From the human T2T-CHM13v2.0 reference genome, Homo sapiens: a stretch of DNA of 64,000 nucleotides. A program made the translations under genes and the position numbers. Below the pieces are notes generated by a model. The model did no database searches and was not told the DNA's origin. It was given only the letters and a program-made list of their open reading frames with translations. Of the stretch, positions 923 to 20,507 are shown piece by piece (position 1 is the stretch's first letter; every line of letters starts with the position of its first letter). The DNA lies in assembly GCF_009914755.1 (NCBI RefSeq), contig NC_060938.1; one strand, 5' to 3'.

Positions 923-2489
923 ATTGATCATTCTTGGATGTTTCTCGCAGAGGGGGATTTGGCAGGGTCATAGGACAATAGTGGAGGGAAGGTCAGCAGA
1001 TAAACAAGTGAACAAAGGTCTCTGGTTTTCCTAGGCAGAGGACCCTGCAGCCTTCCGCAGTGTTTGTGTCCCTGGGTACTTGAGATTAGGGAGTGGTGAT
1101 GACTCTTAAGGAGCATGCTGCCTTCAAGCATCTGTTTAACAAAGCACATCTTGCACCGCCCTTAATCCATTTAACCCTGAGTGGACACAGCACATGTTTC
1201 AGAGAGCACAGGGTTGTGGGTAAGGTCACAGATCAACAGGATCCCAAGGCAGAATAATTTTTTTTAGTACAGAACAAAATGAAAAGTCTCCCATGTCTAC
1301 CTCTTTCTACACAGACATGGCAACCATCCGATTTCTCAATCTTTTCCCCACCTTTCCCCACTTTCTATTCCACAAAACCGCCATTGTCATCATGGCCCGT
1401 TCTCAATGAGCTGTTGGGTACACCTCCCAGACGGGTTGGTGGCCGGGCAGAGGGGCTCCTCACTTCCCAGTAGGGGCGGCCGGGCAGAGGCGCCCCTAAC
1501 CTCCCGGACGGGGCGGCTGGTCTGGCGGGGGGGCTGACCCCCCCACCTCCCTCCCGGACGGGGTGGCTGCCAGGCGGAGACGCTCCTCACTTCCCAGACA
1601 GGGTGGCTGCTGGGCAGAGGGGCTCCTCACTTCTCAGATGGGGCGGCTGCCGGGCGGAGGGGCTCCTCACTTCTCAGATGGGGCGGCTGCCGGGCGGAGG
1701 GGCTCCTCACTTCTCAGATGGGGCGGCTGCCGGGCGGAGGGTCTCCTCACTTCTCAGACGGGGCGGCCGGGCAGAGACGCTCCTCACCTCCCAGACGGGG
1801 TCGCGGCCGGGTAGAGGCGCTCCTCACATCCCAGACGGGGCGGCGGGGCAGAGGCGCTCCCCACATTTCAGACGATGGGCGGCCGGGCAGAGACACTCCT
1901 CACTTCCTAGATGGGATGGCGGCCGGGAAGAGGCGCTCCTCACTTTCCAGACTGGGCAGCCAGGCAGAGGGGCTCCTCACGTCCCAGACGATGGGCGGCC
2001 AGGCAGAGATGCTCCTCACTTCCCAGACTGGGTGGCGGCCGGGCAGAGGCTGCAATCTCAGCACTTTGGGAGGCCAAGGCAGGCAGCTGGGAGGTGTAGG
2101 TTGTAGCGAGCCGAGATCACGCCACTGCACTCCAGCCTGGGCACCATTGAGCACTGAGTGAACCAGACTCCGTCTGCAATCCCGGCACCTCGGGAGGCCG
2201 AGGCTGGTGGATCACTCGCGGTTAGGAGCTGGAGACCAGCCCGGCCAACACAGCGAAACCCCGTCTCCACCAAAAAAAATACGAAAACCAGTCAGGCGTG
2301 GCACTCGGCAGTCTGAGGCAGGAGAATAAGGCAGGGAGGTTGCAGTGAGCCGAGATGGCAGCAGTACAGTCCAGCTTCTGCTCGGCATCAGAGGGAGACC
2401 GTGGAAAGAGAGGGAGAGGGAGACCGTGGGGAGACGGAGAGGGAGAGGGAGACCGTGGGAAGATGGAGAGGGAGAGGGAGAGGGAGAGC
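895..2489 (-). mobile_element. SVA retrotransposon (SVA_D-like), near full length
   Basis: Poly-T 895-922 with AATAAA (tttatt 920-925); SINE-R ~923-1420; GC-rich VNTR ~1430-2045 (gggcggctgccgggcggaggggctcctcacttctcagat units); Alu-like domain ~2046-2400; CCCTCT hexamer region ~2400-2489. Confidence 0.97.
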
Positions 2490-3487
2490 TCTGAGCTGTT
2501 GAAGTAGACAGAGCTGGTTGTATGCAATGCATCTGCTTTTATGTCCTGAGAGTGAAGAGTGAGCGATCTATAACACTAATTGTCCCTTCGTGCACTAAAG
2601 CAGATTCAACTTCCATAAATCAAAGAACAGTTTCTCTGCCTCTTCAAACCATCCACAGGAAAGTATTTGATGCATGTCTTTTGTGAGCATTCCTTATTTC
2701 TAGTTATTAAAGAGAAAGGCAGAAAGATTGGCCATTTGAGGTGTCTCTCTAACAAAGGACGCTACTAACCTTAAGATGTAATAAAGCATTGTATTACTTT
2801 TATGGCTTTAGTTTATTGGAGTTTGGCTTGGCTGAATTTTCGCTAATATACTTTGCAAACAATCTGTATTTTAAGTAAGTACTTTTTAAATTTCACTGCG
2901 CCTGTTTTATGGAGGCAATTGGAAGAGGAAAAGGAGGACTGTGTATATATGAATCATGTCATTAGAGAGAGATTGCTCTCTGACACAGGGAAATTGTACG
3001 TACCACAATGAATGGACCTCCCTTGAGGGCTACAGACATGTTTTACCAAAGATGCTCTTGGGGAAATTCACGGGGCCAAATGCACTTTTTCTGAGAAAGA
3101 AAATACTCTTTAGGGGATCCAAGCTAGGTATAAATATTGACCATTCTCCTAGAGCTGCAGATAACAACCCTCCACATACAGCTCAACTCCAAGGTATGAC
3201 AAGCACGTGTGGTTGAACATTCATGGTCCTTATGACTCTAGTTTGATAGATTATTTCAGCTGCAACCTTTCCAATTCTCTTTTGGAACATGTTTATTGAT
3301 TTTAAAAGAATGGATGTTGCCTAATGAGATTATTGTTCAACTGTGGTCATTCTGTTCCTTAAAAAATAAAAGCATAATTTTAAATCATGCCTTGATACTT
3401 TAAATGAAAGAATGCACTAAGAAAGCTTGTCTGCTCTTCCCCTTGTCTGACACATACTTGGACTGTATGGATGTTTTACTTTTCCTT

Positions 3488-17060: not shown

Positions 17061-17971
17061 GATTGCCCAACTTCATAACTTACCTTTTTATCTTCACATT
17101 TCAGAAAAACTTTACTCTCAACTGGTTTTTAAGAGACTTCAATTTATGGACTATTTTTCCTTGAACTATGCCTTACTTCAAATTTACCTTCAGTATTAAT
17201 ATCTTTGCAACAATGAAATATATTCATACAGACACCAAATGACGGGCTGCCCTAGCCAAATTAGTACATCATAAATTGTCTTCAGGAACAACTGGGGCAG
17301 CCCAGTACTATTATTATTTCTCTTCTTTAGCTGGACATAGTGAGAGATTTCTTGAAAACAAGATATTTTGCAGAAGTCAATTTCTTCTCTCAATAGGTAC
17401 AAAATAAATACATTTGAGCACATTCATTTTTCCAAAATCTAGTTTAACAAGCATATATTAAACATAGGCTGATATTACACACAGTTGTGCACAACATCTG
17501 ATAGACATATGAAAATACTAATTTGAATAAAACATGAACTCTGTCTTCCAAGAACTTAAACTCTTTTCAGAGAGTTTGTTGTAGTATGATACAAGGAAGT
17601 AGGACATTTTCTCGGTGAGATACAAACATTAGATTGAATAATGACTGAGCAGATTTCTGACTTTGGGAATAACATATGAAAAAGTGACTCTGGCTCCTAG
17701 GAGAATAAAAGGTTTGAAGGTTCAGACAAATGTTACTTGCCATGCAAGCCTTTCACATTATAGGCTGACAATAAATGCTCTTGAAAGAAAAAGAAAGAGG
17801 CAGGTAGGGAAAGAAGAATAGCATTACAAGGGCAAGAAGGGTAGAAGGTTGGGGGTCATGAACTTAGAGAGAGCTGAGCTTCAGGTTGCTGCTGTGGTTG
17901 TTATTAGTATTATTAATCGTTTGGTCTGCTGTTTGAGATAGGATTGATTTTCTGTTCTAAATAAAATTCCC

Positions 17972-18146
17972 AGCCAGGTGCAGTGGCTCACACTTGTCAT
18001 CCCAGCACTTTGGGAGACCAAGGTGGGAGGATCAATTGAGCCCAGGAGGTCGAGGCTGCAGTGAGCTATGATGGCACCACTACACTCCAGCCTAGGTGTC
18101 AATGAGACCCTGTCTCTAAACAAAAAAAAAAAAAAAAAAAAAAAAA
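17972..18146 (+). mobile_element. Alu monomer (FRAM/AluJ-like single arm) with A tail
   Basis: Single arm running from gtggctcacac to gagcccaggaggtcgaggctgcagtgagctatg...gagaccctgtctc, then poly(A). Confidence 0.85.
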
Positions 18147-18398
18147 TTAAAATTAAAAAAATTAACAAATACAATTTGTTAAAATTTAAAAAATTAACAA
18201 ATACAATTCCTCCTGGGATCAGCATAGAGCTGATTTTTTATTTCAAATAAAATTCCTCATGGAATCAGCAGGTCCCCATGTATTTAGAACATAAAATCCC
18301 TGAAGCCAGGATCCCATACCAAGCTCTCTCACCTGCCGGAGACTGGAGTCCTCCATTCCCTATGCTGGAAGCACATTCCCCTTGCCTCGTTCTGATTT

Positions 18399-20507
18399 TA
18401 CCTTTATATGGATATATATATCCATATAAATCCATATATATATGGATACATATATCCATATAAATCCATATATATATGGATACATATATCCATATAAATC
18501 CATATATATATGGATACATATATCCATATAAATCCATATATATGGATACATATATCCATATAAATCCATATATGTATGGATACATATATCCATATAAATC
18601 CATATATGTATGGATACATATATCCATATAAATCCATATATGTATGGATACATATATCCATATAAATCCATATATGTATGGATACATATATCCATATAAA
18701 TCCATATATGTATGGATACATATATCCATATAAATCCATATATGTATGGATACATATATCCATATAAATCCATATATGTATGGATACATATATCCATATA
18801 AATCCATATATGTATGGATATATATATCCATATAAATCCATATATGTATGGATATATATATCCATATAAATCCATATATGTATGGATATATATATCCATA
18901 TAAATCCATATATGTATGGATATATATATCCATATAAATCCATATATGTATGGATATATATATCCATATAAATCCATATATGTATGGATATATATATCCA
19001 TATAAATCCATATATGTATGGATATATATATCCATATAAATCCATATATGTATGGATATATATATCCATATAAATCCATATATGTATGGATATATATATC
19101 CATATAAATCCATATATGTATGGATATATATATCCATATAAATCCATATATGTATGGATATATATATCCATATAAATCCATATATGTATGGATATATATA
19201 TCCATATAAATCCATATATGTATGGATATATATATCCATATAAATCCATATATGTATGGATATATATATCCATATAAATCCATATATGTATGGATACATA
19301 TATCCATATAAATCCATATATGTATGGATACATATATCCATATAAATCCATATATGTATGGATATATATATCCATATAAATCCATATATATATCTATATA
19401 AATCCATATATATGGATATATATATCCATATAAATCCATATATATATGGATATATATATCCATATAAATCCATATATATGGATATATATATCCATATAAA
19501 TCCATATATATGGATATATATATCCATATAAATCCATATATATGGATATATATATCCATATAAATCCATATATATGGATATATATATCCATATAAATCCA
19601 TATATATGGATATATATATCCATATAAATCCATATATATGGATATATATATCCATATAAATCCATATATATGGATATATATATCCATATAAATCCATATA
19701 TATGGATATATATATCCATATAAATCCATATATATGGATATATATCCATATAAATCCATATATATGGATATATATCCATATAAATCCATATATATATGGA
19801 TATATATATCCATATAAATCCATATATATATGGATATATATATCCATATAAATCCATATATATATCTGTATAAATCCATGTATACGGACATATATGTCCG
19901 TATAAATCCGTATATATGGACATATATGTCCGTATAAATCCGTATATATGGATTGATATGTCCGTATCAATCCATATATATATGGATATATATGTCCGTA
20001 TCAATCCATATATATATGGATATATATGTCCGTATCAATCCATATATATATGGATATATATGTCCGTATCAATCCATATATATATGGATATATATGTCCG
20101 TATCAATCCATATATATATGGATATATATGTCCGTATCAATCCATATATATGGATATATATGTCCGTATCAATCCATATATATGGATATATATGTCCGTA
20201 TCAATCCATATATATGGATATATATGTCCGTATCAATCCATATATATGAATATATATGTCCGTATCAATCCATATATATGGATATATAAGTCCATATATA
20301 GATATATAAATCCATATATATGGATTTATATATCCATATATATGGATATATAAATCCATATAAAGGTGTATATATATATACCTTCATATATTTATATATA
20401 CATATGTGTGTGTGTATATATATATATATAAAGGTATTTATATATATAAAGGTATATATATATATATATAAAAATACCTTTATATATATAAATACCTTTA
20501 TATGGAT
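18399..20507. repeat. AT-rich 32-34 bp minisatellite (VNTR) with ordered variant blocks
   Basis: Units ta(c/t)atatatccatataaatccatatat(gt/at)atgga (34 bp), a 32-bp variant, then tatatatgtccgtatcaatccatatatatgga from ~19950; degenerate (TA)n end. Confidence 0.97.

What the first reader, a model, noticed from the sequence alone, without database searches (positions are those of the whole stretch)
18399..20507. Minisatellite that records its own birth: TSD-like 15-bp bracket whose reverse complement seeds the repeat unit
Seen: tacctttatatggat occurs exactly at both ends (18399-18413 and 20493-20507). Every main unit contains atccatataaa, the reverse complement of tttatatggat from that 15-mer, and a longer inverted copy atccatataaaggt sits at 20354-20367. 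Further aaggta/tacctt pieces fill 20360-20500. Inference: an ancestral single site ...gattttacctttatatggattgctcacagg... was broken. It was repaired by iterative fold-back/template-switch synthesis that duplicated the site and made inverted copies joined by (TA)n, and one module then expanded to ~2 kb. This would be de novo VNTR genesis from unique DNA with no transposon involved.
Basis: partly seen in the sequence, partly recalled or inferred. Interest (0 to 1): 0.8.

Follow-up and report, generated by a model that had tools for sequence, protein, structure and literature searches.

The report
Hairpin-prone AT-rich minisatellite with bracket
A 2.1-kb stretch in a gene desert of human chromosome 14 is a well-preserved but ordinary AT-rich tandem repeat; its matching ends and mirror-image relics suggest growth by hairpin-guided copying and slippage, but its birth cannot be shown without ape genomes.

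Summary
TACCTTTATATGGAT lies exactly at 18399-18413 and 20493-20507. It has only 11 copies in the whole genome, so this pair is not chance. A 14/15 inverted copy sits at 20354-20368. Between the two direct copies lie 58 tandem units of 22-44 bp (most 30-34), 21.5% GC, in blocks of identical units. A degenerate right edge follows, with a 78-bp near-perfect palindrome.

The 34-bp unit and both flanks are unique to this locus. No poly(A) or transposon body is present. Each unit, however, is three ~11-bp ATCCAT(AT)n sub-repeats, two direct and one inverted, and that sub-repeat forms arrays at 13 or more other human loci.

Several of those loci, and FRA16B, also carry inverted copies of flank or unit motifs at their edges. 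One (L032) has the same "bracket whose reverse complement is the unit" layout.

The fold-back or template-switch part of the reading is therefore plausible and has parallels. The "TSD-like" bracket is equally what published slippage models of minisatellite birth predict. The claimed single ancestral site cannot be tested, because no primate genomes were available.

Verdict: a new member of a known kind, of modest interest.

The parts
18399..18413 (+). Left copy of the 15-bp bracket TACCTTTATATGGAT. Its last 9 bases are the first inverted (ATGGAT-type) sub-repeat of the array.
18403..18430 (.). 28-bp perfect palindrome TTTATATGGAT-ATATAT-ATCCATATAAA at the left boundary. It occurs once in the window.
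18414..19869 (+). Homogeneous main array. Blocks of identical 30-34-bp units run E3 J B7 A14 B2 A K C F C8 H2 F2 L. GC is 20.5% and there are no CpGs. K and L are 22-bp truncated paralogous units 472 bp apart.
19870..20305 (+). Variant block of 13 units (M N O D5 G3 P Q) with GTCCGT/ACGGAC-type motifs. It holds all 15 CpGs of the array. NCBI's file leaves 19876-20267 of it unmasked.
20306..20353 (+). Last, irregular unit (44 bp) plus the first four bases of the right-edge segment, leading into the right zone.
20354..20368 (-). Inverted copy of the bracket (14/15). With the left bracket it forms a palindrome split by the main array.
20358..20389 (.). Quasi-palindrome ATATAAAGGTG-(TA)5-TACCTTCATAT.
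20405..20414 (+). (TG)5 run inside the right zone, possibly a relic of a compound (TA)n/(TG)n microsatellite.
20426..20503 (.). 78-bp AT-rich (90% AT) near-perfect palindrome with no spacer; arms match 37/39. Each arm carries the same 18-bp tandem duplication of the AAAGGTA/TACCTTT module. The right arm contains the first 11 bases of the right bracket.
   Evidence: (I16)
20493..20507 (+). Right copy of the 15-bp bracket, followed directly by unique sequence. With its 5 upstream bases it matches the unit segment ATAAATCCATATATATGGAT at 17/20.

Best explanation
This is a single-locus, AT-rich, hairpin-prone minisatellite with no sign of function.

**Inferred history**
1. The site first held a short (TA)n-rich, probably compound (TA)n/(TG)n, tract next to the motif TACCTTTATATGGAT.
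2. (TA)n is self-complementary, so hairpins formed during replication or repair let the polymerase switch template. This copied tract-flanking bases to the other side in inverted orientation. The result was a small family of 7 or more module copies in both orientations, including palindromes.
3. Replication slippage or unequal exchange between the resulting short direct repeats then started a tandem array of the (R-X)n-R type.
4. A 34-bp unit made of three ~11-bp sub-repeats ([ATCCAT ATAA][ATCCAT (AT)2-3][ATGGAT (AT)3]) was amplified blockwise to about 2 kb, mostly on the left side.

The two exact 15-mers are the outermost copies, which were not homogenised. They are not a target-site duplication.

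**Shown:** the anatomy, the locus-specificity and the hairpin potential. **Inferred:** the order of events and the ancestral state.
For: **Array anatomy**
- Period 34, 58.8 copies, 94% matches.
- The unit map shows blocks of identical units on the left and diverged units plus relics on the right.
- ATCCAT occurs 101 times and ATGGAT 56 times, a 2:1 ratio.

**Locus-specificity**
- The unit at up to 2 mismatches (30 of 30 matches) and its 20-mer core (14 of 14 exact matches) occur only at this locus.
- Both flanks are unique in the genome.

**Hairpin potential and inverted copying**
- 78-bp palindrome with a mirrored internal duplication.
- DNA fold z-scores are -8.15 for the right zone and -6.37 for the left edge; 0 of 200 shuffles fold as well in either case.

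**Bracket as array edge**
- The right bracket lies in phase with the units: 17/20 against a maximum of 15 and a mean of 7.1 for other right-zone 20-mers.

**Parallels elsewhere in the genome**
- ATCC(AT)n arrays are recurrent: 301 matches against 10 for the reversed control.
- Among 13 fetched arrays, an inverted GGAT is the first non-A/T sequence beyond the array at 5 of 26 edges, in 4 arrays. My rough null of 0.04-0.08 per edge gives P = 0.003-0.05.
- L050 has a 24-nt unique flank copied perfectly in inverted orientation.
- L032 has an array bracketed by a ~20-bp direct repeat whose reverse complement is the unit.
- The FRA16B flank carries 10 inverted copies of its core motif.
- Pilot count: the dinucleotides flanking (AT)6 tracts are reverse-complementary at 22 of 41 sites against 14.5 expected, P = 0.013.

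**Literature**
- Two slippage models of minisatellite initiation, with flanking direct repeats of 5-20 bp (PMC3389668, passages).
- Short-range template switching is common in great apes and enriched in AT-rich DNA (PMC7954356, passages).
- Insertions with palindromic features (PMC3638132, passages).
Against: - No outgroup was available, so the ancestral state and the order of events are inferred only.
- Internal units carry only 9-12 of the 15 bracket bases. An (R-X)n-R origin therefore needs the original units to have been replaced by a variant.
- The left edge passes from unique DNA straight into consensus-quality units with no degenerate zone. A one-off insertion-like event would also produce that.
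- The two outer copies are 15/15 identical while the other module copies are 13-14/15.
- The edge survey is small (13 arrays), its null is my own estimate, and the dinucleotide pilot used only the 50 listed of 487 sites.
Confidence: 0.55

Rival explanations
1. A single unique 15-bp site was broken once. Iterative fold-back or template-switch repair duplicated the site (a TSD-like bracket) and made inverted copies joined by (TA)n. One module then expanded.
For: - The bracket is exact at 15/15, and homology ends sharply on both sides.
- The left edge is crisp.
- Inverted copies and palindromes exist.
- Flanks and unit are unique, with no transposon body.
- Short (5-34 bp) fold-back inverted duplications at double-strand breaks are documented experimentally in yeast (PMC11724301, abstract).
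- L050 shows a 24-nt flank copied in inverted orientation.
Against: - It is not distinguishable from slippage between pre-existing repeats with the data available.
- The right zone holds a (TG)5 run and several (TA)n runs, which look like an older compound microsatellite.
- The right bracket copy reads as a diverged in-phase unit.
- None of the inverted copies extends beyond TACCTT into the reverse complement of the left flank.
- The ATCCAT(AT)n sub-repeat arises at many loci that lack this 15-mer.
Confidence: 0.2
2. The 15-mers are a true target-site duplication of an inserted element, such as a retroposon tail or a DNA transposon, whose body later turned into the array.
For: - 15 bp lies within the size range of L1-type target-site duplications (recalled, not from a call).
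- At other loci, ATCC(AT)n arrays do grow from Alu tails (L039, L045) or from the internal (TA)n tract of one dispersed repeat (L030, L043, L046).
Against: - There is no poly(A) next to the right copy and no poly(T) next to the left one.
- No element body is present, and the unit has no other copy in the genome.
- The nearest Alu ends 190 bp upstream, closed by its own 12-bp direct repeats at 17959-17970 and 18245-18256.
Confidence: 0.03
3. The bracket is a chance match in low-complexity DNA, or an assembly artefact.
For: AT-rich low-complexity sequence inflates short matches, and 9 of the 15 bases belong to the unit.
Against: - The 15-mer has 11 copies in 3.1 Gb.
- The extra hexamer TACCTT/AAGGTA recurs 6 times within 150 bp of the right edge.
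- The assembly is a telomere-to-telomere one, according to the hub's note.
Confidence: 0.02

Closest known systems
AT-rich minisatellites of the rare fragile sites FRA16B (33 bp) and FRA10B (~42 bp)
   Same: - Unit length is similar, at about 30-40 bp.
- Both are AT-rich tandem arrays with predicted hairpins.
- FRA16B also has an edge zone of variant repeats carrying the core motif in both orientations: 10 inverted and 31 direct copies in 3 kb of CHM13.
- The review PMC9714581 (passages) argues that various AT-rich motifs may become fragile once expanded.
   Different: - There is no sequence similarity: the FRA16B unit search found no match at this locus.
- This array is 78.5% AT, against about 89-91% for FRA16B and FRA10B.
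- A 211-nt piece of this array folds more stably than an equal piece of FRA16B: -45.6 kcal/mol, z -6.4, against -35.2 kcal/mol, z -1.7.
- At 2.1 kb it is below the >5 kb quoted for FRA10B fragility.
- No fragile site is known to me at this position (recalled).
[quoted passage not shown]
   Same: The array is flanked by a short direct repeat and ends in an incomplete unit: the (R-X)n-R layout.
   Different: - The repeat is 15 bp, longer than the typical 7 bp.
- Present units hold only part of it.
- Inverted copies and palindromes play no part in those models.
- I did not see the original papers. One was not held; the other is known to me only from the reference list of PMC3389668 and was not looked up.
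Short-range template switching / quasi-palindrome correction (Ripley 1982; Loytynoja and Goldman 2017; Walker et al. 2021, PMC7954356) and fold-back inverted insertions at breaks (PMC11724301)
   Same: - They create perfect inverted repeats from nearby sequence.
- They are enriched in AT-rich DNA.
- The sizes involved are tens of bases.
   Different: In the passages I read, those studies describe single events, not seeding of a tandem array.
Palindromic AT-rich repeats (PATRR11, 17, 22)
   Same: Both are AT-rich, near-perfect palindromes with no spacer. Here the palindrome is 78 bp, 95% complementary and 90% AT.
   Different: - PATRRs measure about 190-600 bp (abstract of PMC1851657 in the listing).
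- They are not tandem arrays.
- They are defined by translocation breakpoints.
ATCC(AT)n / (AT)nCC simple repeats at other human loci
   Same: They share the same ~10-14-bp sub-repeat. Thirteen arrays of 60 bp to 2.4 kb were examined.
   Different: Those arrays are almost purely one orientation, for example 97 ATCC to 1 GGAT in L045. Here a three-part unit with one inverted sub-repeat is the unit amplified, and that 34-bp unit is unique to this locus.

Membership tests
Minisatellite / VNTR | Head-to-tail array with a unit of about 10-100 bp | tested here: met
   TRF gives period 34, 58.8 copies, 94% matches over 18405-20364. The unit map shows 58 units.
Minisatellite / VNTR | Copy number varies between individuals | not testable with these tools
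   Only one human assembly was held. Runs of up to 14 identical units suggest recent turnover.
FRA16B/FRA10B-type AT-rich minisatellite | Unit of 33-42 bp, about 90% AT | tested here: inconclusive
   The unit length fits at 30-34 bp. AT content is 78.5%, against 89% measured around FRA16B and 91% quoted for FRA10B.
FRA16B/FRA10B-type AT-rich minisatellite | Stable single-strand secondary structure | tested here: met
   DNA folds give z -6.37 and -8.15, with 0 of 200 shuffles folding as well.
FRA16B/FRA10B-type AT-rich minisatellite | Expansion to several kb or more, with a cytogenetic fragile site inducible by distamycin A or BrdU | not testable with these tools
   The array is 2.1 kb in this assembly. 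No population or cytogenetic data were available.
FRA16B/FRA10B-type AT-rich minisatellite | Sequence relationship to the FRA16B unit | tested here: not met
   The FRA16B unit at up to 2 mismatches gives 32 matches, none on this chromosome.
Array born by slippage between short flanking direct repeats (Haber-Louis / Taylor-Breden) | Array flanked by a direct repeat of 5-20 bp; terminal unit incomplete | tested here: met
   The 15-bp exact repeat lies at both ends. The right end is a partial unit matching 17/20.
Array born by slippage between short flanking direct repeats (Haber-Louis / Taylor-Breden) | Every unit carries the flanking repeat | tested here: inconclusive
   Units carry TATATGGAT (9/15), or TCCATATATATGGAT (12/15, compared by eye), but not the full 15-mer.
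Target-site duplication of a retroposon or transposon | Element body, poly(A) tail or terminal inverted repeats between the duplicated sites | tested here: not met
   No poly(A) or poly(T) lies at either junction. The unit has no other copy in the genome. No Dfam/RepeatMasker run was possible.
PATRR | Near-perfect AT-rich palindrome of roughly 190-600 bp at a translocation hotspot | tested here: not met
   The palindrome is 78 bp. Sizes of known PATRRs come from the abstract of PMC1851657. Translocation data are not testable here.
Dispersed satellite family | The same unit at many loci | tested here: not met
   The 34-bp unit and the 20-mer core occur only here. Only the ~11-bp sub-repeat recurs elsewhere.

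The most novel reading that the evidence does not exclude
(TA)n tracts may act as mirrors. Hairpin fold-back across the tract copies the bases flanking it to the other side in inverted orientation, and the new motif-plus-(TA)n module is then amplified by slippage.

This would be a common, transposon-independent route by which AT-rich minisatellites, FRA16B-type ones included, are born. This chr14 locus would be one of the clearest preserved examples, and L032, L039, L043, L046, L050 and L051 would be others.
Probability: 0.3. Interest if true: 0.55.

Novelty: new member of a known kind. Interest (0 to 1): 0.33.

Why it matters
AT-rich hairpin-forming arrays stall replication and underlie rare fragile sites. 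They were poorly assembled before telomere-to-telomere genomes. This locus has crisp unique flanks, a locus-specific unit and preserved edge relics. Together with complete ape genomes, it could serve as a clean case for reconstructing how such an array starts: slippage between pre-existing repeats, or a one-off fold-back repair. In itself it is a neutral repeat in a gene desert, with no sign of function.

Tried and rejected
- **Primate orthologues.** No tool holds primate genomes, and the window's genome 'has no relatives here'. The decisive test could not be run.
- **Paralogues of the flanks as a stand-in outgroup.** None were found: only self-hits at E up to 10.
- **Dispersed-family reading.** Rejected for the 34-bp unit.
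- **Alu-tail origin.** Rejected. The Alu monomer upstream is closed by its own 12-bp repeats 142 bp before the array.
- **Palindrome ATATATCCATATATATGGAT elsewhere.** I checked whether it marks a family. It gave 21 non-locus matches at 15 places (my hand count of the listing) against 14 for the reversed control, so there is no clear excess.
- **Literature.** No paper text holds the unit or the bracket string (0 papers). Five topic searches found no paper that describes a minisatellite seeded by an inverted copy of its flank. The library lacks most subscription journals.
- **Taylor and Breden 2000.** Not held.
- **CpG argument for direction.** I considered whether the CCGT-type units are ancestral, but found it indecisive.
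- **Unmasked BLAST.** A first BLAST of the loci was swamped by AT-repeat hits. It was repeated with AT-rich stretches masked.

Full report
**1. Observation**

The 15-mer TACCTTTATATGGAT lies exactly at 18399-18413 and 20493-20507. It has 11 copies on both strands of the 3.1-Gb genome, against 12 for the reversed control. Two same-strand copies 2.1 kb apart are therefore not chance. Homology ends sharply at the 15-mer on both sides.

A 14/15 inverted copy lies at 20354-20368. Further TACCTT copies sit at 20379, 20475 and 20493. AAGGTA sits at 20431 and 20449, and AAGGT at 20363.

ATCCATATAAA occurs 44 times. Of these, 43 are at unit junctions between 18420 and 19842, and one is at 20354. It is absent from the 13 variant units between 19870 and 20305 and from the two truncated units.

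Nine of the 15 bracket bases belong to the repeat unit. The unit is internally palindromic, so the 'reverse complement inside every unit' is largely automatic.

**2. Anatomy**

TRF finds one array at 18405-20364: period 34, 58.8 copies, 94% matches.

Cutting at the ATAAATCC/ATCAATCC anchor gives 58 units in blocks of identical copies: E3 J B7 A14 B2 A K C F C8 H2 F2 L M N O D5 G3 P Q R.
- The left 1.45 kb is homogeneous and has no CpGs.
- The next 0.44 kb holds all 15 CpGs, in variants such as GTCCGT and ACGGAC.
- K and L are 22-bp truncated paralogues 472 bp apart.
- Overall GC is 21.5%.

Each unit is three ~11-bp sub-repeats, [ATCCAT ATAA][ATCCAT (AT)2-3][ATGGAT (AT)3]: two direct and one inverted. 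ATCCAT occurs 101 times and ATGGAT 56 times.

The right edge (20354-20507) holds TACCTT/AAGGTA modules in the order - + ... (TG)5 ... - - + +. It includes a 78-bp palindrome (20426-20503) with no spacer. The arms match 37/39, the palindrome is 90% AT, and both arms carry the same 18-bp tandem duplication.

The left bracket and the inverted copy at 20354 form a palindrome that the main array splits.

Single-strand DNA folds are far more stable than shuffles: z -8.15 and -6.37, with 0 of 200 shuffles as good.

**3. Surroundings and uniqueness**

No gene is annotated in the window (hub note).

The 34-bp unit at up to 2 mismatches gives 30 matches, all here. The 20-mer core is exact only here. Both flanks give only self-hits. 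The tool states that such counts are lower bounds.

An Alu monomer with an A-rich tail lies upstream at about 17971-18208. It is closed by its own 12-bp direct repeats at 17959-17970 and 18245-18256, so the array is not its tail. No poly(A) or poly(T) lies at either junction.

**4. Related sequences elsewhere**

The sub-repeat is not special to this locus. A three-unit ATCCATATAT pattern with 0-4 nt of slack gives 301 matches, against 10 for the reversed control. Fixed 12- and 14-bp versions add further loci.

I fetched 13 distinct arrays, 60 bp to 2.4 kb long (TRF).
- Two sit at Alu tails (L039, L045).
- L043 and L046 share one dispersed repeat with L030, a single-palindrome locus outside this set.

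Edges of these arrays:
- In 4 of the 13 arrays (5 of 26 edges), the first non-A/T sequence beyond the outermost ATCC unit is an inverted GGAT. With my rough per-edge null of 0.04-0.08 this gives P = 0.003-0.05. The null is an estimate, not measured.
- L050 has a 24-nt unique flank copied perfectly in inverted orientation across a small AT centre.
- L032 came from a search for the palindrome, so its ascertainment is biased. It shows a (TTCCAAATAT)n array bracketed by the direct repeat TTTGGAA[T/C]GTCATATATAT, whose reverse complement is the unit. A (GACATATATAT)n array follows the bracket's GTC. This is the same layout as the finding.
- FRA16B, located in this genome with the unit printed in PMC2875025, has a flank zone with 10 inverted and 31 direct copies of its core motif.

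Pilot count: among the 50 listed of 487 sites matching SS(AT)6SS, collapsed to 41, the two flanking dinucleotides are reverse-complementary at 22 against 14.5 expected (P = 0.013, or 0.004 without the array class).

**5. Mechanism**

The best reading has three steps.
1. Hairpins across self-complementary (TA)n tracts promote short-range template switching. This makes inverted copies of tract-flanking bases.
2. Slippage or unequal exchange between the resulting short direct repeats starts an (R-X)n-R array.
3. One compound unit is then amplified in blocks.

The steps rest on published mechanisms:
- Short-range template switches are frequent in great-ape genomes and enriched in AT-rich DNA (PMC7954356, passages).
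- Non-slippage insertions carry palindromic features (PMC3638132, passages).
- Fold-back inverted duplications of 5-34 bp form at breaks in yeast (PMC11724301, abstract).
- Two slippage models of minisatellite initiation predict flanking direct repeats and an incomplete terminal unit (PMC3389668, passages).

The right bracket copy, with its five upstream bases, matches the unit segment 17/20. Other right-zone 20-mers reach at most 15. It therefore behaves as a diverged terminal unit.

The anatomy is shown; the order of events is inferred.

**6.

A single broken site repaired by iterative fold-back synthesis is compatible with everything seen. It is mechanistically close to my reading. The two differ only in the ancestral state: a bare 15-mer, or an AT-rich patch with at least two motif copies.

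Four points weakly favour the patch:
- the (TG)5 and (TA)n runs in the right zone;
- the in-phase right copy;
- the recurrence of the sub-repeat at loci lacking this 15-mer;
- the fact that no inverted copy extends into the reverse complement of the left flank.

Two points favour a single event: the crisp left edge and the 15/15 identity of the outer copies. Only outgroups can decide, and none were available.

**7. Comparison and verdict**

The locus works like the AT-rich minisatellites of FRA16B and FRA10B. A 211-nt piece folds more stably than an equal piece of FRA16B: -45.6 kcal/mol against -35.2 kcal/mol. But it is unrelated in sequence, less AT-rich, and only 2.1 kb long.

Its palindrome is PATRR-like but far shorter than known PATRRs (listing).

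It is a new member of a known kind. The bracket is a known signature, and the fold-back idea is plausible but unproven. The most interesting residue is the hint that inverted flank motifs at the edges of AT-rich arrays are a general pattern.

Noticed in passing
window 1441-2493: GC-rich tandem array (period 37-40 and 116) followed by GAGAGG-type repeats. It looks like the VNTR part of an SVA element; that family name is recalled, not tested.
   Followed up: no
window 17959-18256: Alu monomer-like element with a long A-rich tail that contains a 32-bp tandem duplication (18147-18208). It is flanked by exact 12-bp direct repeats AAATAAAATTCC at 17959-17970 and 18245-18256. About 40 bp of non-Alu sequence lies between the tail and the second repeat.
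   Followed up: partly
L050 (G000:C6:67175000-67176900): Perfect palindrome at the edge of an ATCC(AT)n array. A 24-nt unique flank is repeated in inverted orientation across an ATAT-ATCCATGGAT-AT-ATCCATGGAT-ATAT centre.
   Followed up: partly
L032 (G000:C5:115130752-115131372): Compound AT-rich region holding several motif families, each in both orientations. A (TTCCAAATAT)n array is bracketed by a ~20-bp direct repeat whose reverse complement is the unit. A (GACATATATAT)n array follows.
   Followed up: partly
L027-L029 (G000:C16:71115035-71118676): The FRA16B locus in this genome carries about 20 units of 28-33 bp, embedded in 3 kb or more of 89% AT degenerate repeats.
   Followed up: partly
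L030, L043, L046: Three loci share one dispersed repeat (77-82% identity over 200-262 bp) whose internal (TA)n tract has grown ATCC(AT)n or GGAT(AT)n arrays of different size. The family was not identified.
   Followed up: partly
L053 (G000:C23:137812500-137816300): A 26-bp higher-order unit alternates CCGT and CCAT sub-repeats. This is the same A/G difference that marks the CpG-bearing units at window 19870-20305.
   Followed up: no
whole genome: SS(AT)6SS occurs 487 times against 177 for the reversed pattern SS(TA)6SS. None of the 50 listed sites has a CG dinucleotide at either flank.
   Followed up: no
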